Below, piece by piece: positions 13,421 through 34,016 of a stretch of 35,307 bases of DNA (position 1 is its first letter; every line of letters begins with the position of its first letter). The notes under the pieces were generated by a model, which did not search any database, was not told the origin of the DNA, and was given only the letters and a program-made list of their open reading frames with translations. Origin of the DNA: Flavobacteriales bacterium (lineage in GTDB: Bacteria; Bacteroidota; Bacteroidia; NS11-12g; UBA955). The position numbers and the translations under genes were made by a program. Location: assembly GCA_947472115.1 (NCBI GenBank), contig CANIZU010000002.1, positions 1 through 35,307 on the forward strand, in the 5' to 3' direction.

Positions 13421-13429
13421 CAAAATAAA

Positions 13430-16506: not shown

Positions 16507-17153
16507 AAATTCAAAAATTGAGAATCTTTGGCGTTGCCATGTCGATGGGTTTTTCATTGCTTACAATTGCCGGATTTCAGGGGGGGTGTAATTCACCGAG
16601 CAAAGCTGCAACCGCACATGGCAACACATCCAATAGCTCATCAGAGGCAGTTCAAGGCGATGCGTCTAATGCATCAGCGGAAACTTCTTCAAGTGATTCG
16701 TCGATAAAATCGAGTGAAACGGCATCGTCCGCTACGCATCAAACCGATGGAAAGTTGACATGGATGGACTTCGCCGAGGGGTATACAAAAGCCAAGGCAG
16801 AGAATAAAATTTTGTTGGTTGATGCCTATACCGACTGGTGCAGTTGGTGTAAAGTGATGGACAGAGAAACCTACACAAATGCCCAAGTGATTGCGGTGTT
16901 GAACAATGAATTTGTCTGTGTAAAGTTTAATCCAGAAGTAGAAAAAAAGCACAAATTTGGTGCTTATAATTTGAGCAGCAACGAGCTGTTGTATTGGTTG
17001 GCCAACGGTCAGCCTGGGGGATATCCTACGAGTTATTTTATATTTAATCCGGCCAAGAACGACAAACGTGCGGCGCAGGCGGGTTATTTGCCGCCAGACC
17101 AGTTCTTGAACTTGTTGGGCGAGGTGATAAAGAGAAAGAAGCAATCTGAATGA
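16503..17153 (+). CDS. Thioredoxin-fold (DUF255/thioredoxin_7-like) lipoprotein
   Basis: 216-aa ORF with lipobox ...FQGGC, a Ser/Ala-rich linker, then a thioredoxin-like core with CxxC (DAYTDWCSWCKVMDRE). ATGA overlaps link it to both neighbours. Confidence 0.7.
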   Translation: MKIQKLRIFGVAMSMGFSLLTIAGFQGGCNSPSKAATAHGNTSNSSSEAVQGDASNASAETSSSDSSIKSSETASSATHQTDGKLTWMDFAEGYTKAKAENKILLVDAYTDWCSWCKVMDRETYTNAQVIAVLNNEFVCVKFNPEVEKKHKFGAYNLSSNELLYWLANGQPGGYPTSYFIFNPAKNDKRAAQAGYLPPDQFLNLLGEVIKRKKQSE

Positions 17154-18547
17154 CAAGAAAAATAAAAGAGTTTCGCATATTCGAGAAACTAACCATTGAA
17201 TCGGCTGCGGCCGAGGGACATAGTATTGGCCGTCACGACGGACAGGTAATTTTTGTAAAATATGCCGCGCCGGGCGATGTGGTGGACGTGCAAATCGTGA
17301 AGAAGAAAAAGAACTTCATGGAGGGCAAGATCATCAAGTTTCATGAGAAATCTGCAATGCGGGTTGATCCTACGTGTAAGTATTTTGGCACATGTGGCGG
17401 TTGCAAATGGCAGCATCTGGGCTATGCGGATCAGTTGGCATTCAAGCAGCAGCAGGTGGTGGATGCGATGGAGCGGATTGGCAAGGTGGAAGGATTTGAG
17501 GTGATGCCTATTTTGGGTAGCGGACAGGTTTATGGGTATCGCAACAAGTTGGAACTGACGTTTGCCGATCGCAGTTGGGTGACGGTGATGCCTGCTGAGG
17601 GTGAGCCTTTTCCAACGGCGTTGGGGTTTCATATGCCGGGAAAATTCGACAAGGTATTGGATATTGAGGCGTGTCATTTGATGCCCGATTACGTGAATTT
17701 GATTCAGCGCGGGGTGAAGGGGTATTGCGAGGCGAATGGGATCGACTTTTTCAACGTGATTAAGCAGGAAGGACAGATGCGAAACATCATGTTCCGATGC
17801 AACCGCGATGGCGAGTGGATGGTTTTGGTATCGTTTCACGAGGAGCGCGATGAGAATGCGGGGCTGATGCAGTACATCGCCGATACTTTTGATAAAATTG
17901 TGTGTTTGGTGTACGTGATCAATCCCAAGCGGAATGATACCTTGCAGGATTTGGAGGTACAGTTGTTTGCGGGTAAGCCCTATTTAACGGAGCGATTGGG
18001 CAACAGAACGTATAAGGTGAGGCCGCAGAGCTTCTTTCAGACCAATACGTTGCAGGCCGAGAATTTGTATGAGATTACCAAGGATTTTGCCGGGTTAACA
18101 GGCGATGAGTTGGTGTATGATTTGTATACGGGAACGGGCAGTATTGCTTTGTTTGTGGCCGATCAAGCGAGGGAAGTTGTGGGTATTGAGTATGTGGAAG
18201 AGGCGATCAAGGATGCCAAGGACAACATGCTGTTGAATGGGGTGGAGAACTGCAAATTTTACGCAGGCGATATGAAGGATATTCTCACGGCAGAGTTCAT
18301 TGCGGAGCACGGAAGACCCGATGTGGTAATCACCGATCCACCGCGCGATGGCATGCATCCGAGTGTGGTTGAGCGATTGCTGGAGGCCAGACCCAAGCGC
18401 ATTGTTTACGTAAGTTGCAATCCAGCGACCCAGGCCCGCGATGCGGCGTTGTTGGATGCTGCGTATCGTTTGGTGAAGGTTCAGCCCGTGGACATGTTCC
18501 CACATACGCATCACGTGGAGAATGTTGGACTCTGGGAGTTGCGGTGA
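17150..18547 (+). CDS. rlmD: 23S rRNA (uracil-C5)-methyltransferase RlmD/RumA family
   Basis: 465-aa ORF with an N-terminal TRAM-like domain, the Fe-S Cys cluster CKYFGTCGGCKWQH, SAM-binding VYDLYTGTGSIALFVA, DPPRDG, and the catalytic-Cys segment VYVSCNPAT. Confidence 0.9.
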   Translation: MTRKIKEFRIFEKLTIESAAAEGHSIGRHDGQVIFVKYAAPGDVVDVQIVKKKKNFMEGKIIKFHEKSAMRVDPTCKYFGTCGGCKWQHLGYADQLAFKQQQVVDAMERIGKVEGFEVMPILGSGQVYGYRNKLELTFADRSWVTVMPAEGEPFPTALGFHMPGKFDKVLDIEACHLMPDYVNLIQRGVKGYCEANGIDFFNVIKQEGQMRNIMFRCNRDGEWMVLVSFHEERDENAGLMQYIADTFDKIVCLVYVINPKRNDTLQDLEVQLFAGKPYLTERLGNRTYKVRPQSFFQTNTLQAENLYEITKDFAGLTGDELVYDLYTGTGSIALFVADQAREVVGIEYVEEAIKDAKDNMLLNGVENCKFYAGDMKDILTAEFIAEHGRPDVVITDPPRDGMHPSVVERLLEARPKRIVYVSCNPATQARDAALLDAAYRLVKVQPVDMFPHTHHVENVGLWELR

Positions 18548-18818
18548 GACTTTGATAGATAAGTAGTCGTAGTAAGTTTTCTTATTTGTATTGGAATCGG
18601 TTTGATTGAAAAAATCGAGTCGTAACTGTGATAATTAGAATGTCAAAGGATTAATCTTCAGTACACTAACTGTCGATGCATCACATTGCCATTGATTTGC
18701 TGAATACCGAAAATAAATACTTGCTTGTTTGGGTTAGGGTAGCTGATGATTGCTTCAGTGTTTGGTGCATTCAAATTGATTTGTTGCAAAGAATCAACGC
18801 TTTAAATAAATATTCTTT
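18493..18818. repeat. Copy A of a duplicated block: rlmD 3' end, intergenic DNA, 3' stub of a 552-aa-gene paralog, and the last codons of a CTD gene
   Basis: By manual alignment, 18493-18786 matches 26691-26982 with one 2-nt indel and scattered substitutions. 18783-18818 matches 28542-28577. The two matches abut at a shared GTTG. Copy A therefore equals copy B with about 1.56 kb (26983-28545) removed. Confidence 0.85.
18658..18786 (-). pseudogene. 3'-terminal stub (stop plus about 42 codons) of a paralog of the 552-aa T9SS protein gene
   Basis: Near-identical to 26854-26982, the C-terminal codons of the intact minus-strand gene at 26854..28512. It has no upstream coding continuation because the homology jumps to 28546. 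Confidence 0.8.
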
Positions 18819-18879
18819 CTTATTTTTTTGATAATAATGGTACTTGAAACTGTCTTATATTTACCAAAATAAAATTTAT

Positions 18880-21800
18880 ATGTTTGCTGAATTTAGAATT
18901 TTCTTTTCTTTTCTGTTTGGATTAATAGGAGTTTTAGCAAATGCACAACCCAAAGCAGTTCAAAATAATTCAACTCAACCGGCATATTTTATTCCTGATG
19001 AAGGACAATTCAAAGACCCCAAACCGTATTTGTATTTTGTTCAATTAGAAGAAAACGAAATTCAAATTAAGTCCGACGGAATAACTTGGGCTACAAATGT
19101 TTTGGTGCCTAGTAAGCCTTTATTGGGTGGATTAATGACTAAAATAAAAAAATCAAATCAGTCAGAAGAATCAGAGGAAGATAAACCTGCCTTTAAAAAT
19201 CAACAGTCGAAAATTGATTTACATTTTATTGGTTGCAATACCTCTTGCGTTATTATGGAATCAAATAAATCGCCCTTTTATTACTCCTATGGCGATAGAA
19301 CTAATCCTGTATATGGATTTAAGGAATTAAAATTTGTGGATTTTTATCCCAATATTGATTTGATTTATACTGTTGAGGATCAAAATAAGAGTTTTAAATT
19401 TTCTTTTTTATTAAAGTCAGGGGCTGATGTTTCAGCGATTCAATATGAGTATAGGCACAACGGACAGTTGATGCCTGTTTTGGATAAGAACGAATTGACA
19501 ATTGCGTCTTCCTCTTTTAAATTAAGGGAGTATGGCTTATCAATTGGTCCTTTGAATAAGCAAAAGAGCGATGATAGTCTAGCTGTAAAATATCGAATCT
19601 CGAATGGTGTCATTGGATATGCAATTACTGGAAATTCACAGAATTCAGAATTACTCATTGATCCATTCGTAATAAAACTATTGGATTTAACCGGCTCCAT
19701 TGTTGCAGTAAATAATCTAGAAAATATCCTGATTAAGACAGATGTAGATGATTTAGGTAATATTTATGTTTGGGGAGGCGGGGTTTATCCCAATCAACCC
19801 AAGCTAGCGAAGTACACACCCTCTGGTAATTTGATCTGGATTTTCATGGGTGAAATTCCTTCCATGAATTGGTATGCAACATCATACAAAGCTGGTAATC
19901 CTTGGTTATATTATCTTGGCACCTTTGTGTTAGCAAAAGAAACGGGGTATACATTTATTTGCCCGGGCTGTGCATCTGCAAATTTCACAATTATTGGATT
20001 AGATGATTCTGGTTTTGCAACAGGGTTTTCAAATGATACCAAAAATAGTTATTCCACTGAAGGATGGGAAATGTTGTTGAACTGCAAAAATGATATTTTG
20101 TATTATTTCGGTGGGGATTGGGGTTACACGAGTTATTATAAAATGAAACTAGATACCTTGCATCCTAGGATACAAAATTTTGGATTGTTCGGAATGTCAG
20201 CAGCGGCTGTTGATATTACTTCGGCTGTAATGGATGATTCAGGTGATGTTTATTTATTACTAAATGGGGGGTCTAGTAACCCGAAATTAAGGAGTTATGA
20301 ATGGAACAATGTGATTGTTAAAATGCATAATGATACCAGTAGAATTTTTTCTAGAAAAACAGGCTTTGATATCGCGGAGCGAGGTACGCATCCTCTATTT
20401 CCATGGAAAGCCGGTTCAAGAATGGCTTACGGCAATTATGGATTATCCAATAGCAGCAATGATTTAGCAATAGACGATCGTTATGTTTATTATTTTGATG
20501 GCAGGTATATGGCTGCATTCACTAAAGATAGTGGCTTTAGGGTGGGTGCGGATTCCATCAAAGCCTATGGACAATATACCCAAGCGGGCATTGCTGCAGA
20601 TTTAAAACAACATGTATTCTTAGGCGGCGACAGTGCTAAGTTGCATTGTTACACATTCAAAGATTCTATCTTTTCCCTGGATACCATTTTGTATTTAAAT
20701 CCCAAATCCAATCCCAAATCCAATCAGAAAATTCATGATGTAGTCTACTTGACAGCCACCCAAGAAATTGTGGTGATTGGCGACAGTCTTTTGGCAAAAG
20801 TAGAATCCCCCTACAAAACCATCGACTCAAATTATGTGTTCTCATTGTCCTCGCAACGTTTTTGTGGAGATTATGTGGTGGCAAAAATTCTAACCACCCC
20901 TTCCAAGAGCATGTCGTTCCAGTGGCTAGACAGCACAACTGGCAAATTGGTAAGACACGTAGATATCATCAATACAGACTCAGACACTTTGCCCAATCCT
21001 ATAGAAGGCCATGTTTATGTAGTGAAATTAGGAGATGCAAAAAAATGTGAGCGATGGTTATTTCAACATGTTTTTAAGGCCAAAATCCTGAAACCGGACA
21101 CGATAATTCAAAAGTTGTGCGAAGGAGATACCTTTATCGTTTCCAAAAATACGATTACACGAGATTCCATATTTAGCGTAAAACTTAAGACCGCCCATCA
21201 ATGTGATTCGCTGTTGAATTATCAAATAACGTTCTTAAAGAAATCCTCGACCAATCTAGATTTCAATATTTGCAAAGGAGATTTTATTCAAATAGGAAAA
21301 TCCAAATATTTCAGCGCAGGCAATTTCTCTGACACCTTCTCTGCCGCCAATGGCTGCGATTCAATTGTCCATAGTCAAATCAAGGTAAAACCAGATACAA
21401 CGGTGACGCACAATTTCTTGATTTGCAAGAAAGATACCATCGTTGTTGGCAATAGCAAATACTACCAAAGTGGGACCTACCTGGATACATTCATTCGATT
21501 TAATGGTTGTGACTCGGTGATTCAGACGAAAATCACCCTATTGGCCGACACGCTAGTTTATTCAACCGCCAAAATCTGTCTAGGCGATTCCTTCAATTTC
21601 GGAGGGTTGTATGTTAAATCACCGGGAAAATACTCGCATCAGTTTGTGCGCAGCAATGGCTGTGATTCCCTTGTGAATTTAACGCTGCAGGCATTGACAG
21701 ACACCACGGTTTTGTTAAATGCAAAGATCTGCAATGGCGAAACGATAACAATTGGCGCACAGGCATTCAAAAACGCGGGAAGTTATTCAATTCCGCTTCA

Positions 21801-22542
21801 AAGGCAATCGGGATGCGATTCTATCATCAAATTGAACGTAACTGTTTTGCCCACTGCTACATCGAATAAGCGAATTGTATTTTGCAATATTGATTCCTTT
21901 GAATATCGAGGTAAATTTTTCCCGTTGCCATTGAAGATATCGGACACTGTATTGGCACAAAATGGTTGTGATTCTATTTTGAAGATTGATATTGGTAGCA
22001 AATTTGTAAAAGCGGGTATTGCCATTGATACTTCAAATTCACCCACGGTACAATTCTTTAGCACTTCTACCAATGCCAATTTCTGGAAGTGGAATTTCGG
22101 AGATTTAAAATCATCTGTTATAGAAAATCCGTTAAATAATTTCCCTAAATCGCACAATTGGATCGTTTATAAAGTATGTTTAATTGTCAGCGATTCAACG
22201 GGTTGCAGCGATACATTGTGTTTAAACCTACCCATGAAACCCGGAGATTTGTTCTCTATCCCGGAGGGAATATCACCCAACGGCGATGGGGTTAATGATG
22301 TGCTTGAAATTTCTGGCCTCTGGGAATATCCGAATGCAAAGTGGACAATTTTTAACATTTGGGGGCAGGTGCTATTTAAATCTAGTACCACCGAAAATTA
22401 TAAATGGGATGGATTTGCTAGGGATGCGGCAGGCATAACGAATAAGAATGCGCTGTTGCCGGAAGGTGTCTATTATATCATTTTTGATTTTAATGATGGC
22501 AAGAGACCTGCTGTCGTTCAAAACCTATATCTCAAAAAGTAG
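18880..22542 (+). CDS. Very large T9SS cargo protein (about 1220 aa): propeller-like N-terminal region, six Cys repeats, PKD-like module, type B (gliding-motility-associated) CTD
   Basis: The ORF track start at 18844 is a TTG. The ATG at 18880 begins signal peptide MFAEFRIFFSFLFGLIGVLANAQ. Motifs shared with the 1111/1105-aa paralogs are FIPDEGQF, FYYSYGD, PNIDLIY, IDPF and D..GNIYVWGG. The PKD-like module has FWKWNFGD. The type B CTD is IPEGISPNGDGVNDVLEI...WTIFNIWGQVLF...KWDG...LPEGVYYIIF. Confidence 0.85.
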   Translation: MFAEFRIFFSFLFGLIGVLANAQPKAVQNNSTQPAYFIPDEGQFKDPKPYLYFVQLEENEIQIKSDGITWATNVLVPSKPLLGGLMTKIKKSNQSEESEEDKPAFKNQQSKIDLHFIGCNTSCVIMESNKSPFYYSYGDRTNPVYGFKELKFVDFYPNIDLIYTVEDQNKSFKFSFLLKSGADVSAIQYEYRHNGQLMPVLDKNELTIASSSFKLREYGLSIGPLNKQKSDDSLAVKYRISNGVIGYAITGNSQNSELLIDPFVIKLLDLTGSIVAVNNLENILIKTDVDDLGNIYVWGGGVYPNQPKLAKYTPSGNLIWIFMGEIPSMNWYATSYKAGNPWLYYLGTFVLAKETGYTFICPGCASANFTIIGLDDSGFATGFSNDTKNSYSTEGWEMLLNCKNDILYYFGGDWGYTSYYKMKLDTLHPRIQNFGLFGMSAAAVDITSAVMDDSGDVYLLLNGGSSNPKLRSYEWNNVIVKMHNDTSRIFSRKTGFDIAERGTHPLFPWKAGSRMAYGNYGLSNSSNDLAIDDRYVYYFDGRYMAAFTKDSGFRVGADSIKAYGQYTQAGIAADLKQHVFLGGDSAKLHCYTFKDSIFSLDTILYLNPKSNPKSNQKIHDVVYLTATQEIVVIGDSLLAKVESPYKTIDSNYVFSLSSQRFCGDYVVAKILTTPSKSMSFQWLDSTTGKLVRHVDIINTDSDTLPNPIEGHVYVVKLGDAKKCERWLFQHVFKAKILKPDTIIQKLCEGDTFIVSKNTITRDSIFSVKLKTAHQCDSLLNYQITFLKKSSTNLDFNICKGDFIQIGKSKYFSAGNFSDTFSAANGCDSIVHSQIKVKPDTTVTHNFLICKKDTIVVGNSKYYQSGTYLDTFIRFNGCDSVIQTKITLLADTLVYSTAKICLGDSFNFGGLYVKSPGKYSHQFVRSNGCDSLVNLTLQALTDTTVLLNAKICNGETITIGAQAFKNAGSYSIPLQRQSGCDSIIKLNVTVLPTATSNKRIVFCNIDSFEYRGKFFPLPLKISDTVLAQNGCDSILKIDIGSKFVKAGIAIDTSNSPTVQFFSTSTNANFWKWNFGDLKSSVIENPLNNFPKSHNWIVYKVCLIVSDSTGCSDTLCLNLPMKPGDLFSIPEGISPNGDGVNDVLEISGLWEYPNAKWTIFNIWGQVLFKSSTTENYKWDGFARDAAGITNKNALLPEGVYYIIFDFNDGKRPAVVQNLYLKK
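20701..20724 (+). repeat. Perfect in-frame 12-nt tandem duplication (CCCAAATCCAAT x2)
   Basis: Read directly from the sequence. It encodes the NPKSNPKSN segment inside the ~1220-aa protein. Confidence 0.9.
21115..22009 (+). repeat. Six tandem ~50-aa Cys-containing protein repeats (C-x-G-D ... G-x-Y ... G-C-D-S)
   Basis: Repeats begin LCEGDTF, ICKGDFI, ICKKDTI, ICLGDSF, ICNGETI and FCNIDSF. Each ends (N/S/H)(G/Q)CDS + hydrophobic stretch, for example NGCDSIVHSQIKV. Four equivalent repeats occur in the 1111-aa gene (about 23119-23706) and in the 1105-aa gene (about 29102-29689). Confidence 0.8.
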
Positions 22543-22569
22543 ACTTACCCAAAATTAACTTTCTGTACT

Positions 22570-24008
22570 TTACTGCTTCAAATAAATATTCTTTGATAAG
22601 TTGGGGCGATGACCGTCGTTGTAATTGAACACGATGTAGTAAACGCCCTCGGGGAGTAGTTCTGCGGGTTTATTGTTTTGGCTTTGGCCCGATGCGTGAT
22701 TGCGGCCGTCCCACGCGATGTTTTGTTGGGCATTGGATTCAAAGACCACCTGTCCCCAGCGATTAAATATCACCCATGATGCTTTTGGGAAGGCCCAGAG
22801 TCCGGGTATCACCAATGAGTCGTTGAGGCCATCTCCGTTGGGTGAAATGCCTTCCGGGATTTGGATTTCGGCCTCGGGTTTGATGGGTAGGTCCAGACAA
22901 AGCGTGTCATCGCAGCCAAATGAGTCCCTCACCACCAAGCAAACCTTGTAGCTGATCCATAGAAATGATTTGACATAACTGTGCGTGGGACTTTGTATGT
23001 TGCTGCTGTTTAGGTCCCCAAAATCCCACATCCATTGCTTGGCGTTGGTGGTTTTGCCGATGAATTTGAGCGTTGGAAACTGCGAAGAGTCTATCGAAAA
23101 ATCGGACTTAATGTTGTGGCTGATGACCGATAACGTGAACACCGAATCGCAGCCGGTGAAGGCCAATAGCGTATCGCGGAGCGATAATGGCAATGGGTGT
23201 TTTTTGTTTCGGTAGGCAAAGGAATCGGTGTTGCAGAGACTGAGTTGCTGAGATACAAATTGGGGTGAATTGACGGTCAACTGAAGGTTGATTAACGAAT
23301 CACAGCCGTTGGTACGGGCGGTTTTGATTTGGTAGTTTCCCGTGGCAAAAAACGGCAAGTTGTTGAAGCGAAGGGTATCACCCAAGCAAATGGCCGACTT
23401 GATAAAAATGGTGGTGTCGGTGAGGACGGTCAGGCTCGTGTTGACAATGGAATCGCAACCGCGGAAATTGGTGAAGGTATCGGCGTAAGAGCCAGAAATC
23501 CGGTAAGCCCGCGCGCCAACCGTGAAACTATCGCCCCGACAGATTTTCGGATTTAAAAAAGTAAACGAGCGGGGCTTGAAAGTGAGCTTGTACTGAATGA
23601 GGGAGTCGCAGCTGAATTGGTTTTTGAGGGAGTCGGTGAAGGTGGTATCGCGGAAATGTGAGAGTCCATTGTGGAACCAAGTATCAGCGGCACAGAATTG
23701 CAGCGATTGGGGGACGAAATTTTTGGGGTTGGACTGAAGTTGATACCGAGTAAATGCGCCTTTGCAATGAAAATTGCGCTGGATTTTCACGGTGTATTGC
23801 TGTCCGGCGGTGGGGTTAAACAGGGTATCTGAAAAGTGGTTGAGCGAATCGACTTGCTTTACGATTTGTTGGGTTTTGTTATCGGTCCAAACGAATGAAT
23901 ACTTGGAGGCTGAATCGCATTGGGGCAAGGTAACAAAGAGAAAATCATCGCAGGTGGCGGGGCCGTTGGAGTTGAATAACAGGGTGGAATCGATGCTGAA
24001 GTAAGGGT
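22570..24008 (-). repeat. 1.44-kb high-identity 3' gene module, copy 1 (direct repeat of 28553-29990)
   Basis: The manual alignment is colinear, with lengths 1439 vs 1438 nt. At protein level I count about 41 substitutions and no indels over about 478 residues. Identity collapses within a few tens of nt upstream of the NPY(F/T)SIDSTLLFNSNGP segment. Confidence 0.9.
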
Positions 24009-25905
24009 TGGATATTTTGGCAATCAAACTATCCCCGGTAACTATGAGTGTATTGCTGTTGATGTCATATTTCACATCTTGAATGCGACGGCGAGATTTG
24101 GAGATGAGAACTATTTCAGGTTGGGGAGTGAACTTTTTTCCGTCAAAATAAAAAACTTTTATGTTGCTTGAATCGCCGCCAACAAACACGTGATTGCTAT
24201 AATCAACGGTGACACCGGATTGTTGACGTGGGGTATCACAAATTGTTGAATCAACAGCGAGTAATTTTCCGGAATTAGCATGAAATCCGTAGAGGTTTTT
24301 TCCTTCATAGACAAAAATGTAATTTTTATCTGATGCAGTAGCATTCATGCTCCAAATTGGATAATACCGGACAGAAATATTCTTTACACCTGCATATTTT
24401 GCTACATCTCTCCAATTTGTGTAAATTCTTCCGCTAATTAAACGATTTGCGTAACCAGCTAAAAATGAATCAAGGAATATATGGGACCAAATTGAAGAGT
24501 CTAGGCCTTTATTTATTTTTATCAAAGAAGTCTCAATGATGTATGAATTGTTATTGGTTTGGGTGCGTGTTTTATTTCGACCGAATAACACAAATCTATT
24601 TCCGCTGGGGTCTTGGGTAGCATTATTAATTTGATGCTGATTTTCTGGCCATTGCCATTTTTCTGGGTGAGAAAAACGCTGAATTCCCGTGTCAGAAAAT
24701 TTGAGAATTAACTCTTCACTTCCATTGCCACCATAAGAACTCCAAGCATCTGATCCAAACGCAGTGTAGGAATTGTCCGTGCAATTACATAATAATTTAT
24801 CCACTCGGAATCCGTTACGATAGTTAAAATCTAATTTTTTGGTTTTTAGTTGTCTGATAAAATTGTCATAGTTTCCATTAGAATCGAGTCGAATCAGTTT
24901 ATTTCCGTTTAATTCATTGAAATCTTGAGTGATGTAAATTTTGTGTTTACCGGGAGTAACTAGAAAGTTCCCTGCGCCAAACCAATTTGAGTTACTATAC
25001 CAATTAAGACTGTCGATTTTTCCTTGAAAAATCCAATTGAGGGCCCCATGGGTATTGTATTTGGCTATTCTAAATAAGTTATTTTTTCCTGACAAACCAG
25101 AATTCTCTAATCCACATCCGCCATAAACATACACATTGCCCACTTCGTCAAAATCTGCATTGATTCCAGAATTTCTATAGAACGGGTACTTCGTATATTT
25201 TAATGTGTCCATGTTTGTTATTGTATAAACCCATGGGTCTATGTTGTAGGCTTCGTGCAGTTTGTAGGATTGTATTTGAAGTTTTACAGTATCATTTTCG
25301 CGAATAAACCTTAAGGAAACTGGCGTGCCTATTTCGTCGTAAACCTTCCATTCAGTTTGGTTGATGATTAAATATTTGGATATAATTGTGGTCTTGGCCG
25401 TAGAACTCCAAGTAGAGGAATCATCACCAGTAATTTTCCATGAAATATCAGAAATATTGGATCCTTTTTTTAAAATAATAGAGTATTTGAATCCGGAGGC
25501 TATTTCTGGATGTACTTCATATCTAATATCAATATTGGGGTAGAGATTTTGGATGGTAACAGATGCGTAACCATATGCGTTCAATTTGGCCAGACCATAG
25601 CTAAAATAATGTTGGGTTTTACCCTCTACGATGATCGTTGCATTGGGGTTTGTGTTTGTGAAAATTTGAGATATTTGTTTGCTTCCTGCTACACAAGAAA
25701 AACCATTTTTAAATATTTGGATGTCACAATCTTTGTCATTCAATTCAAAATCTGGTGCAGCGGAAAATTCACTATTGGAATTGAATTGACCCTTATTTTC
25801 AATGAAATAATGCAGCGGAAAGGGGTTGGTGTTGACAAACTGTGTTTGGCTTTTTAGTATTGACGCGAGTGTAAAAAAAGTAAGTAGTATTATTTTAACT
25901 CTCAT
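22570..25905 (-). CDS. Large T9SS cargo protein (1111 aa), paralog: propeller-like region, four Cys repeats, PKD-like module, type B CTD
   Basis: Signal peptide MRVKIILLTFFTLASILKSQ, then FVNTNPFPLHYFIENKGQF, YFSYG, PNIDIRYEV, IDPWV and DEVGNVYVYGG. The PKD-like module has QWMWDFGD. The CTD is IPEGISPNGDGLNDSLVIPGLW...WVIFNRWGQVVFES...AWDG...LPEGVYYIVF. Confidence 0.9.
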   Translation of the reverse strand: MRVKIILLTFFTLASILKSQTQFVNTNPFPLHYFIENKGQFNSNSEFSAAPDFELNDKDCDIQIFKNGFSCVAGSKQISQIFTNTNPNATIIVEGKTQHYFSYGLAKLNAYGYASVTIQNLYPNIDIRYEVHPEIASGFKYSIILKKGSNISDISWKITGDDSSTWSSTAKTTIISKYLIINQTEWKVYDEIGTPVSLRFIRENDTVKLQIQSYKLHEAYNIDPWVYTITNMDTLKYTKYPFYRNSGINADFDEVGNVYVYGGCGLENSGLSGKNNLFRIAKYNTHGALNWIFQGKIDSLNWYSNSNWFGAGNFLVTPGKHKIYITQDFNELNGNKLIRLDSNGNYDNFIRQLKTKKLDFNYRNGFRVDKLLCNCTDNSYTAFGSDAWSSYGGNGSEELILKFSDTGIQRFSHPEKWQWPENQHQINNATQDPSGNRFVLFGRNKTRTQTNNNSYIIETSLIKINKGLDSSIWSHIFLDSFLAGYANRLISGRIYTNWRDVAKYAGVKNISVRYYPIWSMNATASDKNYIFVYEGKNLYGFHANSGKLLAVDSTICDTPRQQSGVTVDYSNHVFVGGDSSNIKVFYFDGKKFTPQPEIVLISKSRRRIQDVKYDINSNTLIVTGDSLIAKISNPYFSIDSTLLFNSNGPATCDDFLFVTLPQCDSASKYSFVWTDNKTQQIVKQVDSLNHFSDTLFNPTAGQQYTVKIQRNFHCKGAFTRYQLQSNPKNFVPQSLQFCAADTWFHNGLSHFRDTTFTDSLKNQFSCDSLIQYKLTFKPRSFTFLNPKICRGDSFTVGARAYRISGSYADTFTNFRGCDSIVNTSLTVLTDTTIFIKSAICLGDTLRFNNLPFFATGNYQIKTARTNGCDSLINLQLTVNSPQFVSQQLSLCNTDSFAYRNKKHPLPLSLRDTLLAFTGCDSVFTLSVISHNIKSDFSIDSSQFPTLKFIGKTTNAKQWMWDFGDLNSSNIQSPTHSYVKSFLWISYKVCLVVRDSFGCDDTLCLDLPIKPEAEIQIPEGISPNGDGLNDSLVIPGLWAFPKASWVIFNRWGQVVFESNAQQNIAWDGRNHASGQSQNNKPAELLPEGVYYIVFNYNDGHRPNLSKNIYLKQ

Positions 25906-25936
25906 GTTTTTATTTTATGCTTGTTCTACAAATATT

Positions 25937-26326
25937 ATGAAAAATAAGTTCTTGATTTTTATTTTATTACTTTTTGTTCAAGTATGCAGCGCGCAGACAT
26001 TCGAAATCGAAGAACAAAATATGATAGTTCCTTGTACAACGGGTATTTGGCAAGTGAAGGATTCTTCAGGCTCAATACTTGTTTTCGGTTCATTTAAATC
26101 TGGAATCACACCTAGTAATGGTACATGTCATTCTGGAATTCCTCACAGTGTAGTTTTCAATAGTACAGTTTGCACACCTAGTATGGTGACAGTAATTGTT
26201 GGTGGTCCATCTGGTATTGCTGATTGTACATGTGCATCGACCACCTCAACACAGAAAGTTCAATATATTGCAAATGCCAAATCACCGACAGGTAATTGTA
26301 CTATGATGCTGTCAATTATTTATTAA
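25937..26326 (+). CDS. Small secreted Cys-rich protein of unknown function (129 aa)
   Basis: The ORF track start at 25826 would overlap the 1111-aa gene start. The internal ATG at 25937 gives a canonical signal peptide MKNKFLIFILLLFVQVCSAQ. The mature ~109 aa contain 6 Cys after the signal peptide and are Ser/Thr/Gly rich. I recognise no family. Confidence 0.55.
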   Translation: MKNKFLIFILLLFVQVCSAQTFEIEEQNMIVPCTTGIWQVKDSSGSILVFGSFKSGITPSNGTCHSGIPHSVVFNSTVCTPSMVTVIVGGPSGIADCTCASTTSTQKVQYIANAKSPTGNCTMMLSIIY

Positions 26327-26483
26327 CTCGACGTTAATCGCAAACGCAAAATTTTGGGTGATCTAAAATTTTTGTGTGACAATATTGCGAAATTAAACGT
26401 TCCTTTCGGGAAGAAGCCCTGCACTTCGCTCGCAGGCCTGTATACTTTGTGCCTTGTGATGTTTATGAACTCAAGAAATACCA

Positions 26484-26690
26484 TTAACGTTTCAGATAAA
26501 CATCCACCGAGATGTTTTTGTGAAGACCGTCACTGTATTCAAAAACGATAAAATAGATGCCTTCGGGAAGCAGGGTGTTGTTTTGAGATTGGCTTGAAAT
26601 GTTGTTGGCAGAGGCAACATTCCCCCTAACGGATACATTGCTTTTGCCATCCCACGCGATGTTTTGTTGGGCATTGGATTCAAAGACTAG
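26484..26690 (-). pseudogene. Truncated type B T9SS CTD fragment (C-terminal ~68 codons only) of a third paralog
   Basis: It translates to ...VFESNAQQNIAWDG...LLPEGIYFIVFEYSDGLHKNISVDVYLKR*. The stretch 26650-26689 is nearly identical to the 1105-aa gene CTD (about 28706-28745). Homology stops abruptly at 26690, where the rlmD 3' relic begins. The only start is a junction-created ATG. Confidence 0.8.
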
Positions 26691-26743
26691 CATGTTCACA
26701 CACCCATCACTTGGAGAACGTGGGTTTATGGGAGTTGCGGTAA
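26691..26743 (+). pseudogene. Relic copy of the last ~17 codons of rlmD, including a stop
   Basis: CATGTTCACACACCCATCACTTGGAGAACGTGGGTTTATGGGAGTTGCGGTAA aligns to rlmD 18493-18547 (CATGTTCCCACATACGCATCACGTGGAGAATGTTGGACTCTGGGAGTTGCGGTGA). It is noticeably more diverged than the adjoining intergenic repeat. Confidence 0.8.
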
Positions 26744-26982
26744 GACTTTGATAGATAGGTAGTCGTAGTAAGTTTTCTTGTTTGTATTGGAATCGGTTTG
26801 ATTGAAAAAATCGGGTCGTAATAGTGATAAAAAGATTGGCAAAGGATTAGTCTTCAGTACACTAACTGTCGATGCATCACATTATCATTGATTTGCTGAA
26901 TACCGAAAATAAATACTTGCTTGTTTGGGTTAGGGTAGCTGATGATTGCTTCAGTGTTTGGTGCATTCAAATTGATTTGTTG
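26691..26982. repeat. Copy B of the duplicated rlmD-3'/intergenic/552-gene-3' block
   Basis: Aligns to 18493-18786 (see copy A). Here it continues into the intact 552-aa gene. Confidence 0.85.
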
Positions 26983-28512
26983 GAGCAATTTTCCATTCAG
27001 ATCCCATATAAAAATGTCTTGAAAGGCCGAGGAAGATTGAATATTCCATTGGTCTTTTTCTGAAGGAATGGGACCAATTTTTACGGGTGATTTTGTAATA
27101 ACATGGTTAGAAGCTTTGTTTTTAGATAATTGCGCATAGGCGACTGCAATGGTGTTCCCTGTTGTGTTGTAGATGTCTGAACCGAAGAAGTTAAACGGTG
27201 CGTTAAATGCGTTCAATGGCAGGTGGTATGCACAGCTACTAGGATCAAAGAAACTATAGTTATAAGAGGCCCCTTCATCTTGCCAAGCTTGTTTGTAGTT
27301 CCCATTTAAATCAAACAAAATACACATACTTCCAGATGAATTTTTAATTGAATCTGGGAGATTCGGCCAAAGAGAAGAAGGACATCCATTAAGGCGCAAT
27401 CTTGGTCCTAAATTATTGCATCCCTCTATGAGCTCAAATTGAATTATGGGACTGTAGGAATTGGAGTCGCAAATGAAGAATTTTTTGGGACTTCCATTAG
27501 TTTCATTAAGTATCGCCATAGCACAGTTTGGGTCTCCGGCAAAAGGTACTTTGAGTTTTTTACCCAGCCAATTGCAGTTTCGTTTATAAATTAAACCCAA
27601 ATAAACGTTTCCATGATTGTCTGAACAGAAGTTGTTTCTGTTTGCTCTTGCACCTGAACTGTCGGCCCGTTTCACCCATAGGAGGTTGCCGTTTTTTGCA
27701 TAACAAAAGGTAATTACATCGATGAGATTTCCACCGGCAGGTGATGTGCGTTGGTCAGTTGCTTTGTAAACGGAGAATTTGTTGCGAAAACTGCTCGACT
27801 TGGATATTTCGACCTGTAAAAGAATCGACTGATTGGAAAATGCAATCGTCCTTGAAGTGCCTCCCGTGCCTAGATATTGGGCATTTATTACCTGTCCGAA
27901 ATTATTGATCTCCAATGAATAATACCCGCCGATGGAGTCTAATTTGAGTTCGCTAAAATTAGTGTCGGATGAAGATTTGTAATATCCAAGTGCAATTTTA
28001 TTTTGATTTACGGTTCTAAGCTCTTGGATACTAAAGCCAGTTTTAAACCACAGAAAATCACCGTTGGTATTAAATGAAAATAGCCTTGCGTTTGAAGGGT
28101 AATTGGTACCTCTGTAACTTCCAGCCCCTGAATTCTGCACCAATATTGTGATTTGGTTATTGTTTGTGATTACAATATCAATCAAGGCCATCGAAGAATC
28201 ATTAGATTTAAATGGATAAGCCCACGCATTGGAGGCATTGGATTTATTAATTTTGGTTAATACAGTATTGTAACCGTCTGATTTGCGATAAACCCCATTT
28301 GTTAATCGCAGTGAGTCGCCAATGTTAAACAGAGAATAGATATTACCCAAACTATCAAACACAACTTTCCTGGCTTGAGGAATTTGCCATAGTCCAGTTT
28401 TTCGTTTACCGAAATTTTGGACTTCCTTTATCCATTGAACTTTGGGTGTTGGGATTTGTGCTTCAATTTTCAGTGAAGTGAAAATTAACAGAAAAATGAA
28501 AATTCTTTTCAT
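26854..28512 (-). CDS. Secreted beta-propeller-like (SBBP-repeat-like) protein with type A-like T9SS CTD (552 aa)
   Basis: Signal peptide MKRIFIFLLIFTSLKIEAQ. There are recurring D..GN(I/V)Y motifs (FDSLGNIYSL, DNHGNVYLG). The C-terminal ~75 aa, IGPIPSEKDQWNIQS...IFIWDLNGKLLQQINL...VFIFGIQQ...RQLVY, resemble Por_Secre_tail. The CTD class call is tentative. Confidence 0.75.
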   Translation of the reverse strand: MKRIFIFLLIFTSLKIEAQIPTPKVQWIKEVQNFGKRKTGLWQIPQARKVVFDSLGNIYSLFNIGDSLRLTNGVYRKSDGYNTVLTKINKSNASNAWAYPFKSNDSSMALIDIVITNNNQITILVQNSGAGSYRGTNYPSNARLFSFNTNGDFLWFKTGFSIQELRTVNQNKIALGYYKSSSDTNFSELKLDSIGGYYSLEINNFGQVINAQYLGTGGTSRTIAFSNQSILLQVEISKSSSFRNKFSVYKATDQRTSPAGGNLIDVITFCYAKNGNLLWVKRADSSGARANRNNFCSDNHGNVYLGLIYKRNCNWLGKKLKVPFAGDPNCAMAILNETNGSPKKFFICDSNSYSPIIQFELIEGCNNLGPRLRLNGCPSSLWPNLPDSIKNSSGSMCILFDLNGNYKQAWQDEGASYNYSFFDPSSCAYHLPLNAFNAPFNFFGSDIYNTTGNTIAVAYAQLSKNKASNHVITKSPVKIGPIPSEKDQWNIQSSSAFQDIFIWDLNGKLLQQINLNAPNTEAIISYPNPNKQVFIFGIQQINDNVMHRQLVY

Positions 28513-28552
28513 ATTACTATGTGACGCTTAAAATGCAATTAGTTGCAAAGAA

Positions 28553-29990
28553 TCAAAACTTCAAATAAATATTCTTAGATAAGTTGGGTCGATGACTGTC
28601 GTTGTAATTGAAGACAATGAAATAGACACCCTCGGGGAGTAGTTCTGCGGGTTCAGTGTTTTGGCTTTGGCCCGATGCGTGATTGCGGCCGTCCCATGCG
28701 ATGTTTTGTTGGGCATTGGATTCAAAGACTACCTGTCCCCAACGATTAAAAATCACCCATGATGCTTTTGGGAAAGCCCACAGTCCTGGAATTGCCAATG
28801 AGTCGTTTACGCCATCGCCGTTGGGTGATATGCCTTCCGGGATTTGGATTTCGGCCTCGGGTTTGATGGGTAGATTGAGACAAAGCGTGTCATCGCAACC
28901 AAATGAATCCCTCACCACCAAGCAAACCTTGTAGCTGATCCATAGAAATGATTTGACATAACTGTGCGTGGGACTTTGTACGTTGCTGCTGTTGAGGTCC
29001 CCAAAATCCCATATCCATTGTTTGGCGTTGTTGGTTTTGCCGATGAATTTGAGCGTTGGAAACTGGGATGAGTCTATCGAAAAATCGGACTTAATGTTGT
29101 GGCTGATGACCGATAACTCAAAAACCGAATCGCAGCCGGTGAAGGCGGACAGCGTGTCGCGGAGCGATAATGGCAATGGGTATTTTTTGCTTCGGTAGGC
29201 AAAGGAATCGGTGTTGCAGAGGCTGAGTTGCTGCGTTATAAATTGGGGTGGATTGACGGTCAACTGAAGGTTGATCAGCGAATCACAGCCGTTGGTACGG
29301 GTGGTTTTGATTTGATAGTTTCCCGTGGCAAAAAACAGTAAGCTGTTGAATCGGAGGGTATCGCCCAAACAAATGGCCGACTTGATAGAAATGGTGGTGT
29401 CGGTGAGGACGTTCAGGCTCGTATTGACAATGGAATCACAGCCGCGGAAATTGGTGAAGGTATCGGCGTAATTGCCTGAAATCCGGTAAGCCCGCGCGCC
29501 AACAGTGAAACTATCGCCCCGACAGATTTTTGGAAAAAGAAAAGTGAACGAGCGGGGCTTGAAAGTGAGCTTGTATTGAATGAGCGAATCGCAGCCGAAT
29601 TGGTTTTTGAGGGAGTCGGTGAAGGTGGTATCGCGGAAATGTGAGAATCCATTGTGGATCCAAATATCGGCGGCACAGAATTGCAGCGACTGGGCGATGA
29701 AATCTTTGGGGTTGGAGCGGAGTTGGTAGTTGATAAATGCGCCATTGCAATGAAAATTACGCTGGATTTTTACGGTGTATTGCTGTCCGGCGGTGGGATT
29801 AAACAGAGTATCTGAAAAGTGGTTTAGCGAATCGACTTGCTTTACGATTTGTTGGGTTTTGTTATCGGTCCAAACGAATGAATACTTGGAGGCTGAATCG
29901 CATCGGGGCAAAGTGACAAGGAGATAATCATCACAGGTTACGGGGCCGTTGGAATTGAATAATAGGGTGGAATCGATGCTGGTGTAGGGG
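28553..29990 (-). repeat. 1.44-kb high-identity 3' gene module, copy 2 (direct repeat of 22570-24008)
   Basis: See copy 1. Both copies are on the minus strand, so they form direct repeats whose start positions lie about 6 kb apart. Confidence 0.9.
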
Positions 29991-31870: not shown

Positions 31871-31916
31871 TGCATCGTAGACTAAATTAGTAAAATACTA
31901 AGGTAGTTCTATTGAT

Positions 31917-32105
31917 ATGGAAAAAACAAAAGAAATCATTGATTATTTAAAATATTCAACCAAATTAAGGGTTTTGCGCTATGCTAAAGATTGCGGCAAA
32001 AATAAAGAGGCGTGTGAAGTTTTTGGGGTGAAAAAGAGTACATTTTACAAATGGAAAAGGAGTTTGAATAGCATGTATAAAGGCAATTCGCAAATTACTT
32101 CTTAA
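31917..32105 (+). mobile_element. Relic of an IS transposase N-terminal helix-turn-helix module (IS481/IS3-like), with no catalytic domain
   Basis: 62-aa ORF. LRVLRYAKDCGKNKEACEVFGVKKSTFYKWKRSL has the typical transposase HTH pattern (...a..fGVs.sT.YkW.kr). The ORF stops right after the HTH. The next ORF, 8 nt downstream, is an unrelated T9SS protein, so no DDE domain follows. Confidence 0.5.
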
Positions 32106-32112
32106 ATTTACA

Positions 32113-33936: not shown

Positions 33937-33974
33937 GTTGTTTAACCACGCTGAAGTTGAATCTCTGTATACCC

Positions 33975-33996
33975 TAATGAATATAGAAATTCATTA
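33975..33996. terminator. Candidate bidirectional hairpin between convergent genes
   Basis: TAATGAAT-ATAGAA-ATTCATTA forms a perfect 8-bp stem with a 6-nt loop in the 80-nt gap between the 607-aa gene and sucA. The stem is AT-rich, so predicted stability is low. Confidence 0.25.
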
Positions 33997-34016
33997 AATC
34001 AACAAAACTAAATCAA

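What the first reader, a model, noticed from the sequence alone, without database searches (positions are those of the whole stretch)
18493..28577. Segmental duplication scars: a relic rlmD 3' end 8.2 kb downstream of the real one, and a 1.56-kb deletion at a GTTG microhomology
Seen in the sequence: 18493-18786 comprises the last ~55 nt of rlmD, 110 nt of intergenic DNA and 129 nt matching the 3' end of the 552-aa gene. This block recurs at 26691-26982 with one 2-nt indel. In the downstream copy it continues into the intact 552-aa gene and then the 1105-aa gene. In the upstream copy the homology jumps at GTTG (18783-18786) straight to the equivalent of 28546-28577, which is the spacer and last ~8 codons of a CTD gene, reading ...KNIYLKR*. 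GTTG is present at both deletion edges in the intact copy (26979-26982 and 28542-28545). The downstream copy begins exactly where a truncated CTD fragment (26484-26690) ends. Inference: a block of at least [rlmD 3' end - 552 gene - giant CTD gene] was duplicated, by tandem duplication or by insertion into another CTD gene. One copy of the 552 gene was then deleted by microhomology-mediated recombination. The rlmD relic is more diverged than the adjacent non-coding repeat, consistent with loss of constraint.
Basis: partly seen in the sequence, partly recalled or inferred. Interest (0 to 1): 0.65.

Follow-up and report, generated by a model that had tools for sequence, protein, structure and literature searches.

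The report
Recombination scars in secreted-protein gene island
The repeated gene ends are real scars of DNA joining and deletion in a fast-shuffling island of secreted-protein genes in an uncultured lake bacterium, and they reflect mixing of different versions of the island rather than one simple duplication.

Summary
Every sequence observation was recovered at the stated coordinates. These are the 294-nt block (18493-18786 vs 26691-26982, 92.2%, E 1e-119), the jump at GTTG to 28546-28576, and the CTD fragment ending at 26690.

Relatives show what the scars mean. Sister lineages carry the single-copy order rlmD, 552, giant CTD gene, sucA. The rlmD-sucA interval is a hypervariable island of T9SS type-B-CTD cargo genes. 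I found at least seven gene orders among close freshwater lineages.

- The fragment|rlmD-relic junction is an illegitimate join with TA microhomology. It is also present in a haplotype lacking the upstream copy and the 1232-aa gene.
- The upstream 552 copy lost 1,563 bp between ATT(T/A)GTTG repeats.

- The 1111-aa gene is an old mosaic paralogue, not a product of this duplication.
- Most of the relic's divergence is allelic. For 16 of 23 differing columns, the relic's state also occurs in intact single-copy relatives.

The two copies are not each other's closest relatives: a1 groups with one sister lineage and a2 with another.

My best reading is module exchange between structurally different haplotypes, followed by microhomology deletion of the redundant 552. 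These mechanisms are known, so interest is modest.

The parts
17150..18547 (+). Intact rlmD (465 aa), the last conserved core gene on the left edge of the variable island.
   Evidence: TIGR00479 RlmD equivalog at 349 bits against a cut-off of 183. Pfam TRAM plus tRNA_U5-meth_tr. Syntenic in all relatives.
18493..18786 (.). Upstream copy a1: the rlmD 3' end (55 nt), the intergenic 110 nt, and a relic of the last 129 nt of the 552-aa gene (minus strand, 18658-18786).
   Evidence: 92.2% identical to 26691-26982. 99.0% identical to sister lineage L086, with 0 of 110 differences in the intergenic part.
18779..18786 (.). Deletion junction, ATTTGTTG. The two edges in the intact copy are GATTTGTTG|G (26975-26982) and ATTAGTTG|C (28538-28545). 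1,563 bp are missing.
   Evidence: Sequence read. A Logan contig in run X1 (18757-19968, 0 differences) crosses the junction. At least 10 runs hold it.
18787..18817 (-). 7 nt of the 552-to-CTD-gene spacer, then R': the stop codon and last 7 codons (KNIYLKR*) of a type-B-CTD gene.
   Evidence: 39-nt match to 28538-28576. The 18-nt core CTT[T/C]AAATAAATATTCTT occurs 3 times in the window against 0.12 expected. R' occupies the position of the 100-243-nt CTD fragment R2 that precedes the 1232-aa gene in lineage B.
18818..22542 (+). 5' region (18818-18879) and the 1232-aa ORF. The likely start is the ATG at 18880, giving 1220 aa. Domains are DUF7948, PKD and a type-B CTD.
   Evidence: Pfam and NCBIfam. 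93% aa identity to lineage B, with the same 5' region as L095. Absent (depth 0) in haplotype C runs. Preceded by a 107-aa gene in haplotype F.
22570..25905 (-). 1111-aa mosaic type-B-CTD gene. 22570-24089 is the shared 1.5-kb 'H' region. 24090-25783 is a divergent N-terminal body. 25784-25849 is a conserved mature N-terminus.
   Evidence: Orthologues lie at other positions in haplotypes B, D and E.
25937..26326 (+). 129-aa small Cys-rich secreted ORF with a signal peptide.
   Evidence: ORF and signal peptide. Called as a 129-aa gene on contig L100. 44% aa identity to its counterpart in lineage B. No family match.
26484..26690 (-). Truncated CTD fragment of 68 codons plus stop. Only 26646-26689 is of the 1105/1111 type.
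   Evidence: CHU_C at E 0.0016. Alignment and translation. It occupies the position of R2 in L097, which continues past the break point.
26688..26743 (+). Illegitimate junction (TA at 26688-26689, shared by both parents) and the rlmD 3' relic (53 nt from 26691, with a 2-nt frameshifting deletion).
   Evidence: The junction lies inside Logan contigs of haplotypes W and C (X11 contig 26270-26869 with 1 difference; X15 contig 25805-26903). At least 14 runs hold it.
26744..26982 (.). Rest of the downstream copy a2: the intergenic 110 nt and the 3' 129 nt of the intact 552-aa gene.
   Evidence: The intergenic part differs from a1 at 10 sites and from L091 at 4.
26854..28512 (-). Intact 552-aa gene, a secreted all-beta orphan protein.
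   Evidence: Only 16 clusters in 5.8 billion proteins. No Pfam or NCBIfam match. Low-confidence all-beta model, pLDDT 36.
28513..28552 (.). Spacer between the 552-aa gene and the 1105-aa gene. It holds the right-hand deletion edge ATTAGTTG (28538-28545).
28553..31870 (-). 1105-aa type-B-CTD gene, the orthologue of the single 1093-aa gene of sister lineage L086.
   Evidence: 93.5% nt identity over 26691-31762. 94% aa.
31763..34010 (.). Second window-specific segment: the 5' end of the 1105-aa gene, a 62-aa HTH ORF (31917-32105) and a 607-aa type-B-CTD gene (32113-33936). L086 has 118 nt here.

Best explanation
The interval between the core genes rlmD and sucA is a hypervariable island of T9SS type-B-CTD cargo genes. 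Close lineages exchange and reshuffle its modules by homologous recombination. The anchors are rlmD, sucA and the conserved 1.5-kb CTD-coding 3' part ('H') of the gene family.

The window is a composite of two structurally different haplotypes.

- Right-hand backbone: 1111-aa gene, 129-aa ORF, CTD fragment | rlmD relic, IG, 552, 1105-aa gene. It carries an older scar. A block that began 55-57 nt before the end of rlmD (rlmD 3' end, IG, 552, onwards) was joined by illegitimate recombination at a 2-nt TA microhomology to position +178 of a resident CTD gene. The other end was resolved through CTD or downstream homology, either in a homology-facilitated illegitimate recombination (HFIR)-like way or as the join point of a tandem duplication.
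- Left-hand module: rlmD 3' end, IG, 552, spacer, short CTD remnant, 1232-aa gene. It comes from a haplotype in which 552 still lay next to rlmD. It was placed on that backbone by crossovers in rlmD and in H.

This gave two copies of IG-552. The redundant upstream 552 then lost 1,563 bp between ATT(T/A)GTTG repeats. The scars themselves have no function.

Shown: the junctions, the microhomologies, the alternative haplotypes, and the allelic relationships of the two copies. Inferred: the order and the mechanism of the events.
For: 1. Single-copy order rlmD-IG-552-G-sucA occurs in sister lineages at 95-97% nt identity.
2. At least seven orders exist between rlmD and sucA:
- A (L086, L091)
- B (rlmD-552-1111'-ORF-R2-1232-G; L094-L097)
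- C (rlmD stop abutting the 1111-aa gene, no 1232-aa gene, relic junction present; Logan contigs in runs X11, X15 and X1)
- D and E (rlmD abutting a CTD gene, no 552)
- F (rlmD-107 aa-1232-1111-like)
- W (the window)
3. The left junction of C (CGG GAC TGA TTTATC GCTTCAAAT) is homologous to that of D and E (CGT GAT TGA TCACC GCTTCAAAT). It is therefore an inherited arrangement, not a deletion product of W.
4. W, C and F share a nearly identical 1111-aa gene (97-99%) but have three different left modules.
5. a1 and a2 belong to different allelic lineages: ((a1,L086),(a2,L091)),B. In the intergenic 110 nt, a1 differs from L086 at 0 sites, a2 from L091 at 4, and a1 from a2 at 10. For 16 of 23 differing columns, the a2 state occurs in single-copy relatives.
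6. H is equidistant among five copies, and the 1111-aa gene is mosaic.
7. The junction sequences show TA and ATT(T/A)GTTG microhomology.
8. Island genes have lower G+C (36-41%) than the flanks (44-50%).
Against: - No contig of the predicted donor haplotype (rlmD-IG-intact 552-spacer-CTD remnant-1232) was found.
- Haplotype C rests on short Logan contigs (130-820 nt) from three runs, not on a long contig.
- The direction C to W versus W to C cannot be told, because either is one homologous replacement.
- The pattern a1=L086 and a2=L091 is also expected if an old intragenomic duplication collapsed reciprocally by a1 x a2 recombination in those lineages. The a1-type tract begins at about 18502, close to the repeat's left edge at 18493, which fits that rival.
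- The short CTD remnant R' (24 nt) does not have the same junction to the 1232-aa gene's 5' region as R2 of L095, so at least one extra small deletion is needed.
Confidence: 0.5

Rival explanations
1. A classical intragenomic tandem duplication. In an ancestor with the order rlmD-IG-552-...-CTD gene, the segment from 55-57 nt before the rlmD stop to +178 of a CTD gene was duplicated once, with join point = fragment|relic. Recombination among CTD repeats and the 1,563-bp deletion then trimmed the copies. Single-copy lineages L086 and L091 are secondary collapses by a1 x a2 recombination that kept different halves.
For: - One novel junction with 2-nt microhomology is what a tandem duplication leaves.
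- Lineage B has 552-1111'-ORF-R2 in the right order to supply both ends.
- The L086-like tract of a1 and the a2-like tract of L091 start within about 10-30 nt of the repeat's left edge.
- a1-a2 divergence in the intergenic part (9%) is of the order of the neutral divergence among these lineages (4-fold sites 0.09-0.135).
Against: - It needs three to five further events to place the 1232-aa gene and remove the second copies.
- Haplotype C has the relic junction together with an inherited-type rlmD|CTD abutment that no deletion would recreate.
- a1 and a2 are not sisters.
- Three different left modules sit on one backbone.
Confidence: 0.33
2. A mobile element (IS or transposon) carried the 1232-aa gene or the 552 block. 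The 18-nt direct repeats (18800-18817 and 22576-22593) or the 55-nt rlmD repeat are target-site duplications.
For: - 18-nt direct repeats flank the 3.76-kb segment with the 1232-aa gene.
- A 62-aa HTH ORF with weak IS3/IS481 transposase similarity lies at 31917-32105.
Against: - There is no transposase, integrase or terminal inverted repeat in or beside either segment.
- The left 18-nt repeat is the shrunken remnant of a 100-243-nt CTD fragment that precedes the 1232-aa gene in lineage B.
- 18 and 55 nt are outside the usual target-duplication lengths.
- The HTH remnant is 5-13 kb from the scars.
Confidence: 0.03
3. Assembly chimera: co-occurring strains with different island orders were joined at the 97-nt identical stretch or at the 1.5-kb H repeat.
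For: Logan unitigs break inside the repeats at 18614-18757 and 26679-26781. Several haplotypes co-occur in one lake.
Against: - Two k=141 contigs from different samples span both copies (L001 at 32 kb, L002 at 17 kb).
- The longest identical stretch (97 nt) is shorter than k.
- Both unique junctions lie inside contigs from many runs.
Confidence: 0.02
4. The repeated block is kept in two copies because it is a functional element, such as a shared terminator, a small RNA or a regulatory site.
For: The intergenic 110 nt is identical between a1 and L086. The last 97 nt are identical in all copies.
Against: - No Rfam match.
- No terminator-like site.
- Folding energies are no better than shuffles, z -0.4 to +1.6.
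- The intergenic part varies freely among lineages, with 19-24 differences to B.
- Haplotypes A and C have one copy.
Confidence: 0.03

Closest known systems
Tandem duplication join points formed by illegitimate recombination at short or no homology. This is described for Salmonella and E. coli (my own knowledge of work by Roth and colleagues) and in PMC11111574 and PMC3411829, found.
   Same: There is one novel junction between two unrelated positions, with 2 nt of shared sequence. A truncated gene end is left as a relic, and redundant copies are later lost.
   Different: The two copies here are not each other's closest relatives. A haplotype has the junction without the second copy. The event is old and fixed in natural populations, not an unstable laboratory amplification.
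Homology-facilitated illegitimate recombination (HFIR) during uptake of related DNA. This is described for Acinetobacter baylyi and Streptococcus pneumoniae (own knowledge). The term is used in PMC6382021 and PMC8116780, found.
   Same: One end of an incoming block is anchored by homology (CTD/H or sucA side). The other end joins at a 2-8-nt microhomology. This adds foreign DNA and duplicates a short stretch of the recipient.
   Different: Nothing is known about competence or DNA uptake in this uncultured lineage. The donor haplotype is inferred, not observed.
Microhomology-mediated (slipped or end-joining type) deletion of redundant DNA.
   Same: Exactly one copy of a short repeat (GTTG; 7 of 8 for ATTNGTTG) remains at the junction. 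The deleted 1,563 bp lie between the two repeat copies in the intact locus.
   Different: None of note. This is a textbook case.
Recombination-driven diversification of surface-protein gene families through conserved terminal segments. T9SS type-B-CTD proteins and their partner genes are reviewed in PMC9143113 and PMC12618676.
   Same: Paralogues share a conserved C-terminal coding part of 1.5 kb at 85-91% nt identity, while their N-terminal bodies are 22-49% identical at the amino-acid level. Hybrid genes and CTD fragments mark past exchanges.
   Different: No PorP/SprF-like partner gene was detected next to these type-B-CTD genes. The neighbouring 552-aa gene matches no family. No programmed switching machinery, such as an invertase or a retroelement, is present.

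Membership tests
Intragenomic tandem segmental duplication | Two direct copies in one genome, with one novel join point between the end of the unit and its start. | tested here: met
   Direct copies at 18493-18786 and 26691-26982. The junction at 26689/26691 joins CTD +178 to rlmD -55/-57.
Intragenomic tandem segmental duplication | The copies are each other's closest relatives, that is, they arose within the lineage. | tested here: not met
   a1 is 99.0% identical to L086. a2 is closest to L091 (94.9%). a1 and a2 are 92.2% identical.
Intragenomic tandem segmental duplication | Everything between the two starts is a copy of what follows the second start. | tested here: not met
   Beyond the 294-nt block, the only counterparts are the 31 nt after it (18787-17 ~ 28546-76), 1.5 kb of H and a 66-nt piece. 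The 1232-aa gene, the N-terminal body of the 1111-aa gene, the 129-aa ORF and most of the CTD fragment have none.
Intragenomic tandem segmental duplication | The unduplicated state exists in relatives. | tested here: met
   L086-L089 and L091 carry rlmD-IG-552 in single copy.
Homology-facilitated illegitimate recombination / additive integration | One junction at a microhomology of a few nt, with the other side continuous with homologous DNA. | tested here: met
   TA at the fragment|relic junction. To the right, the block runs collinear with L086 for 5 kb.
Homology-facilitated illegitimate recombination / additive integration | The inserted block is of a different allelic origin from the resident copy. 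| tested here: inconclusive
   The relic and intergenic part are of another allele type than the resident rlmD end in both W and C. However, 552 and the 1105-aa gene are as close to L086 as the flanks are.
Homology-facilitated illegitimate recombination / additive integration | DNA uptake or another transfer route exists in the organism. | not testable with these tools
   This is an uncultured freshwater Bacteroidota lineage, and only contigs are available.
Microhomology-mediated deletion | A short identical sequence at both edges in the intact copy, with one copy left at the junction. | tested here: met
   GTTG at 26979-26982 and 28542-28545, with one copy at 18783-18786. Extended match 7 of 8. 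1,563 bp removed.
Transposon or IS insertion with target-site duplication | A transposase or integrase, terminal repeats, and a short target duplication. | tested here: not met
   No such gene or inverted repeat at the segment ends. The 18-nt repeat is a CTD-gene remnant.
T9SS type-B-CTD cargo proteins (TIGR04131 / PF13585 CHU_C) | A C-terminal type-B sorting domain and an N-terminal signal peptide. | tested here: met
   CHU_C at E 1e-17 to 1e-18 in the 1232-, 1111-, 1105- and 607-aa proteins. TIGR04131 at 34-47 bits against a cut-off of 35, so two are just below it. Signal peptides are seen.
T9SS type-B-CTD cargo proteins (TIGR04131 / PF13585 CHU_C) | A cognate PorP/SprF-like gene next to the cargo gene (PMC9143113). 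| tested here: not met
   The gene downstream of the 1105-aa gene, 552, matches no Pfam or NCBIfam family even at E up to 1. Its structure model is too poor to judge.

The most novel reading that the evidence does not exclude
The conserved 1.5-kb CTD-coding 3' part of this DUF7948/type-B-CTD family, and its last about 25 nt that recur as orphan remnants, may act as a portable recombination handle. That would make the rlmD-sucA island a natural cassette-exchange locus. In it, N-terminal bodies and whole genes of surface proteins are swapped within and between co-occurring freshwater lineages, probably under selection from phages or grazers. The scars would be the by-products of a standing diversification process, not of a one-off accident.
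Probability: 0.25. Interest if true: 0.55.

Novelty: new member of a known kind. Interest (0 to 1): 0.3.

Why it matters
This is a well-resolved natural example of how accessory islands of secreted or surface proteins are rebuilt in uncultured lake bacteria. It shows several things:
- Anchors in core genes and in a conserved sorting-domain coding region let whole modules be swapped.
- Rare illegitimate joins leave datable relics.
- Redundant copies are removed at microhomologies.

It also carries a methodological caution. An apparent 'decayed' relic can be a preserved older allele, so dating a duplication from the divergence of its copies can mislead in recombining populations.

It does not reveal a new mechanism or function.

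Tried and rejected
- **Dating from a1-a2 divergence and from the three-way comparison of the 1.5-kb H region.** I abandoned this once five-way alignments showed that the differences are allelic and that H is star-like or mosaic.
- **The 18-nt repeats around the 1232-aa gene as a target-site duplication.** Rejected, because lineage B has a 100-243-nt CTD fragment at the same place.
- **Haplotype C as a deletion derivative of W.** Rejected, because its rlmD|CTD abutment is homologous to that of haplotypes D and E.
- **A functional RNA or terminator in the repeated intergenic block.** No Rfam hit, no terminator-like site, and folding no better than shuffles.
- **Function of the 552-aa protein.** No Pfam or NCBIfam match at E up to 1. 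The AlphaFold model from 8 sequences had pLDDT 36, so I ran no fold search.
- **Search for the predicted donor haplotype with an intact upstream 552 next to the 1232-aa gene.** Not found. The search gave haplotype F instead.
- **Genome collection scan.** It gave only relatives at 66% rlmD identity or less with unrelated downstream genes, plus one contig that ends inside rlmD.
- **One NCBIfam call failed** on a wrong reading frame and was repeated.


Full report
**1. Observation**

The window encodes, in order:
- rlmD (17150-18547, +)
- a 1232-aa DUF7948/PKD/type-B-CTD protein (18844-22542, +; likely start at 18880)
- a 1111-aa paralogue (22570-25905, -)
- a 129-aa Cys-rich secreted ORF (25937-26326, +)
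- a 68-codon CTD fragment (26484-26690, -)
- the 552-aa gene (26854-28512, -)
- a 1105-aa paralogue (28553-31870, -)
- a 62-aa HTH ORF and a 607-aa type-B-CTD gene
- sucA (34017-35300, -)

Self-BLAST and the repeat finder recover the claimed matches. 18493-18786 matches 26691-26982 over 294 columns at 92.2% with one gap (E 1e-119). 18779-18817 matches 28538-28576 over 39 nt at 90%. GTTG stands at all three stated places. The shared motif is ATT(T/A)GTTG, and exactly 1,563 bp are missing.

Further repeats are:
- 22576-24089 vs 28559-30072 (90.4%)
- 25784-25849 vs 31695-31760 (91%)
- a 44-nt block at the right end of the CTD fragment (95-98%)

**2. Not an artefact**

The same order is found on five contigs from five samples. 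Two of them (32 kb and 17 kb, k=141) span both copies. The longest identical stretch between the copies is 97 nt. The fragment|relic junction is held by at least 14 lake or freshwater runs from five or more studies. The deletion junction is held by at least 10 runs from three studies. Logan contigs cross both junctions.

**3. The single-copy state exists**

The 552-aa protein belongs to a tiny family of 16 clusters. A relative with a 93%-identical 552 lies on a 27.5-kb contig, L086. There the order is rlmD, then the 551-aa, 1093-aa and sucA genes, all convergent with rlmD. L086 is 95-97% identical to the window and collinear with 13286-18786, 26691-31762 and 34011-35300. L087-L089 and L091 also have one copy. 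More distant relatives have unrelated genes after rlmD.

**4. The island is hypervariable**

Searches with the 1232- and 1111-aa proteins gave further orders:

| Haplotype | Order between rlmD and sucA | Source |
|---|---|---|
| A | rlmD, 552, G, sucA | L086-L089, L091 |
| B | rlmD, 552, 1111', ORF', CTD fragment R2 (100-243 nt), 1232, G', sucA | L094-L097 |
| C | rlmD stop joined within 12 nt to the 3' end of the 1111-aa gene; no 1232-aa gene (depth 0 over 18.9-22.4 kb); fragment\|relic junction and 552 present | Logan contigs in X11, X15, minor in X1 |
| D | rlmD abutting a 1111-like gene, then sucA | L099 |
| E | rlmD abutting a G-like gene, then a 1111-like gene, then sucA | L098 |
| F | rlmD, a 107-aa gene, 1232 (97.6% to the window), a 1111-like gene | L103, L104 |
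| W | the window | L001-L005 |

A W-like contig with a 137-aa gene between 552 and G also exists (L100).

The rlmD|CTD junction of C (..CGG GAC TGA TTTATC GCTTCAAAT..) is homologous to that of D and E (..CGT GAT TGA TCACC GCTTCAAAT..). It is therefore inherited, not a deletion product of W.

**5. The giant CTD gene was not part of one duplication**

The 1111-aa protein matches the 1105- and 1093-aa proteins at 80-100% only over its C-terminal 500 residues. Its N-terminal 600 residues are 22-49% identical, apart from the first 22 mature residues. The shared 1.5 kb ('H') is 85-91.5% identical in all pairs among five copies from W, A and B. It shows no orthology signal and has clustered differences. 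The block 24210-26645 of W is only 43-69% identical to its positional counterpart in B, although the flanks are about 90%. This is the pattern of an old, recombining gene family.

**6. The two copies are different alleles**

In a five-way alignment a1 is 99.0% identical to L086. a2 is closest to L091 (94.9%). Lineage B is the outgroup.

| Sub-block | a1-L086 | a2-L091 | a1-a2 |
|---|---|---|---|
| rlmD 3' 55 nt | 2 | 8 (a2-B: 5) | 11 |
| Intergenic 110 nt | 0 | 4 | 10 |
| 552 3' 129 nt | 1 | 3 | 2 |

(Differences.)

Of the 23 columns that differ between a1 and a2, 16 show the a2 state in an intact single-copy relative. All eight such columns in the relic are synonymous variants of functional rlmD genes. 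Only a 2-nt deletion and one substitution are unique to the relic. Its extra divergence is therefore allelic, not decay.

Four-fold-site divergence among W, L086 and L091 is 0.09-0.135. So a1 and a2 are about as far apart as orthologues of sister lineages. Haplotype C has an a1-type functional rlmD end and an a2-type relic. The L086-like tract of W begins at about 18502, with 15 sites against 2.

**7. The junctions**

- *Fragment|relic.* The CTD parent reads ..AAAGACTA|CCTG.., the rlmD parent (allele GGTAGACATG) reads ..GGTA|GACATG.., and the product is ..AAAGACTAGCATG... That is 2 nt of microhomology, so the join is illegitimate. In L097 the positional counterpart of the fragment runs on past +178.
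- *Deletion.* ATT(T/A)GTTG lies at both edges.
- *R' before the 1232-aa gene.* The 24-nt gene end with 7 nt of the 552-G spacer is the remnant of a CTD fragment like R2 of B. It is followed by the same 5' region as in L095, but with a different break point. The 18-nt core occurs three times against 0.12 expected.

**8. Best explanation**

W, C and F share one backbone (the 1111-aa gene at 97-99%) but carry three different left modules between rlmD and that gene. The simplest account has three steps.
1. An older illegitimate join put [rlmD 3' end-IG-552-G] into the 3' end of a resident CTD gene. The other end was resolved by homology. This could have been an HFIR-like event or a tandem-duplication join point.
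2. A left module from a haplotype with 552 next to rlmD and a CTD remnant before the 1232-aa gene was placed on this backbone by crossovers in rlmD and in H.
3. The now redundant upstream 552 was deleted at the microhomology.

The main rival is an old intragenomic tandem duplication followed by recombination among CTD repeats and reciprocal collapse in L086 and L091. It explains the tract boundary near 18500. It needs more steps, however, and it does not explain the inherited-type junction of C. I give about 0.5 to the first and about 0.33 to the rival. That the scars are recombination and deletion scars is nearly certain.

**9. No function for the scars**

There is no Rfam match, no terminator-like site, and no folding better than shuffles. 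The 552-aa protein remains an all-beta secreted orphan.

**10. Comparison and novelty**

The mechanisms are known: illegitimate join points, HFIR, microhomology deletion, and recombination among paralogues (papers found, plus my own knowledge). The locus is a new, well-documented instance in an uncultured freshwater Bacteroidota lineage. Interest is modest.

Noticed in passing
window 31917-32105 (+): A 62-aa ORF with an HTH_28 domain (E 4e-7) and weak IS3/IS481 transposase N-terminal similarity. It lies between the 1105- and 607-aa genes, inside a 2.2-kb segment (31763-34010) that L086 lacks. It may be an IS remnant.
   Followed up: partly
L023 (JBKCJE010000024.1), locus 10001-10753: A MAG contig ends inside rlmD. 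Residues 1-251 are 98% identical to the window, while the upstream neighbours are only 44-91% identical. This is either a recent transfer of rlmD DNA between lineages or a chimeric contig end.
   Followed up: no
window 27757-28072 (inside the 552-aa gene): A patch of about 300 nt where the window differs from both L086 and L091 (73-80% identity), while the rest of the gene is 97-100% identical. It looks like an imported tract.
   Followed up: partly
window 16800-17199 (end of the 216-aa thioredoxin-like gene, start of rlmD): L086 is only 81% identical here, although its flanks are 94-97%. The window equals L091 at 43 of 47 informative sites. This is another recombinant tract.
   Followed up: partly
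L100 1338-1751 and L091 117-599: Some haplotypes carry a 137- or 160-aa Cys-rich secreted ORF between 552 and the CTD gene. Homology to the window ends at 28461, inside the 552 signal peptide. The 129-aa ORF of the window (25937-26326) is a similar small Cys-rich secreted protein.
   Followed up: partly
L095 9750-9777: A further orphan 28-nt piece of a CTD-gene 3' end (96% to L086) lies just upstream of the G' gene start. The last 25-30 nt of these genes recur as remnants at several junctions.
   Followed up: no
runs X15 and X17, joints 22767>28800, 22708>26650 and 25849>22575: Logan contigs in other lakes join the CTD regions of different paralogues or place a CTD 3' end directly upstream of the 1111-like gene. 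This suggests still more hybrid arrangements.
   Followed up: no
P0015 and P0016: Two database proteins share only the N-terminal 120-160 residues of the 552-aa protein (84-96% identity) and continue with unrelated sequence. One has an RNA polymerase Rpb2 domain hit. They are either chimeric contigs or modular variants.
   Followed up: partly
window 18844-34010 vs flanks: Island genes have lower G+C (36-41%) than the left flank (44%) and sucA (50%).
   Followed up: no
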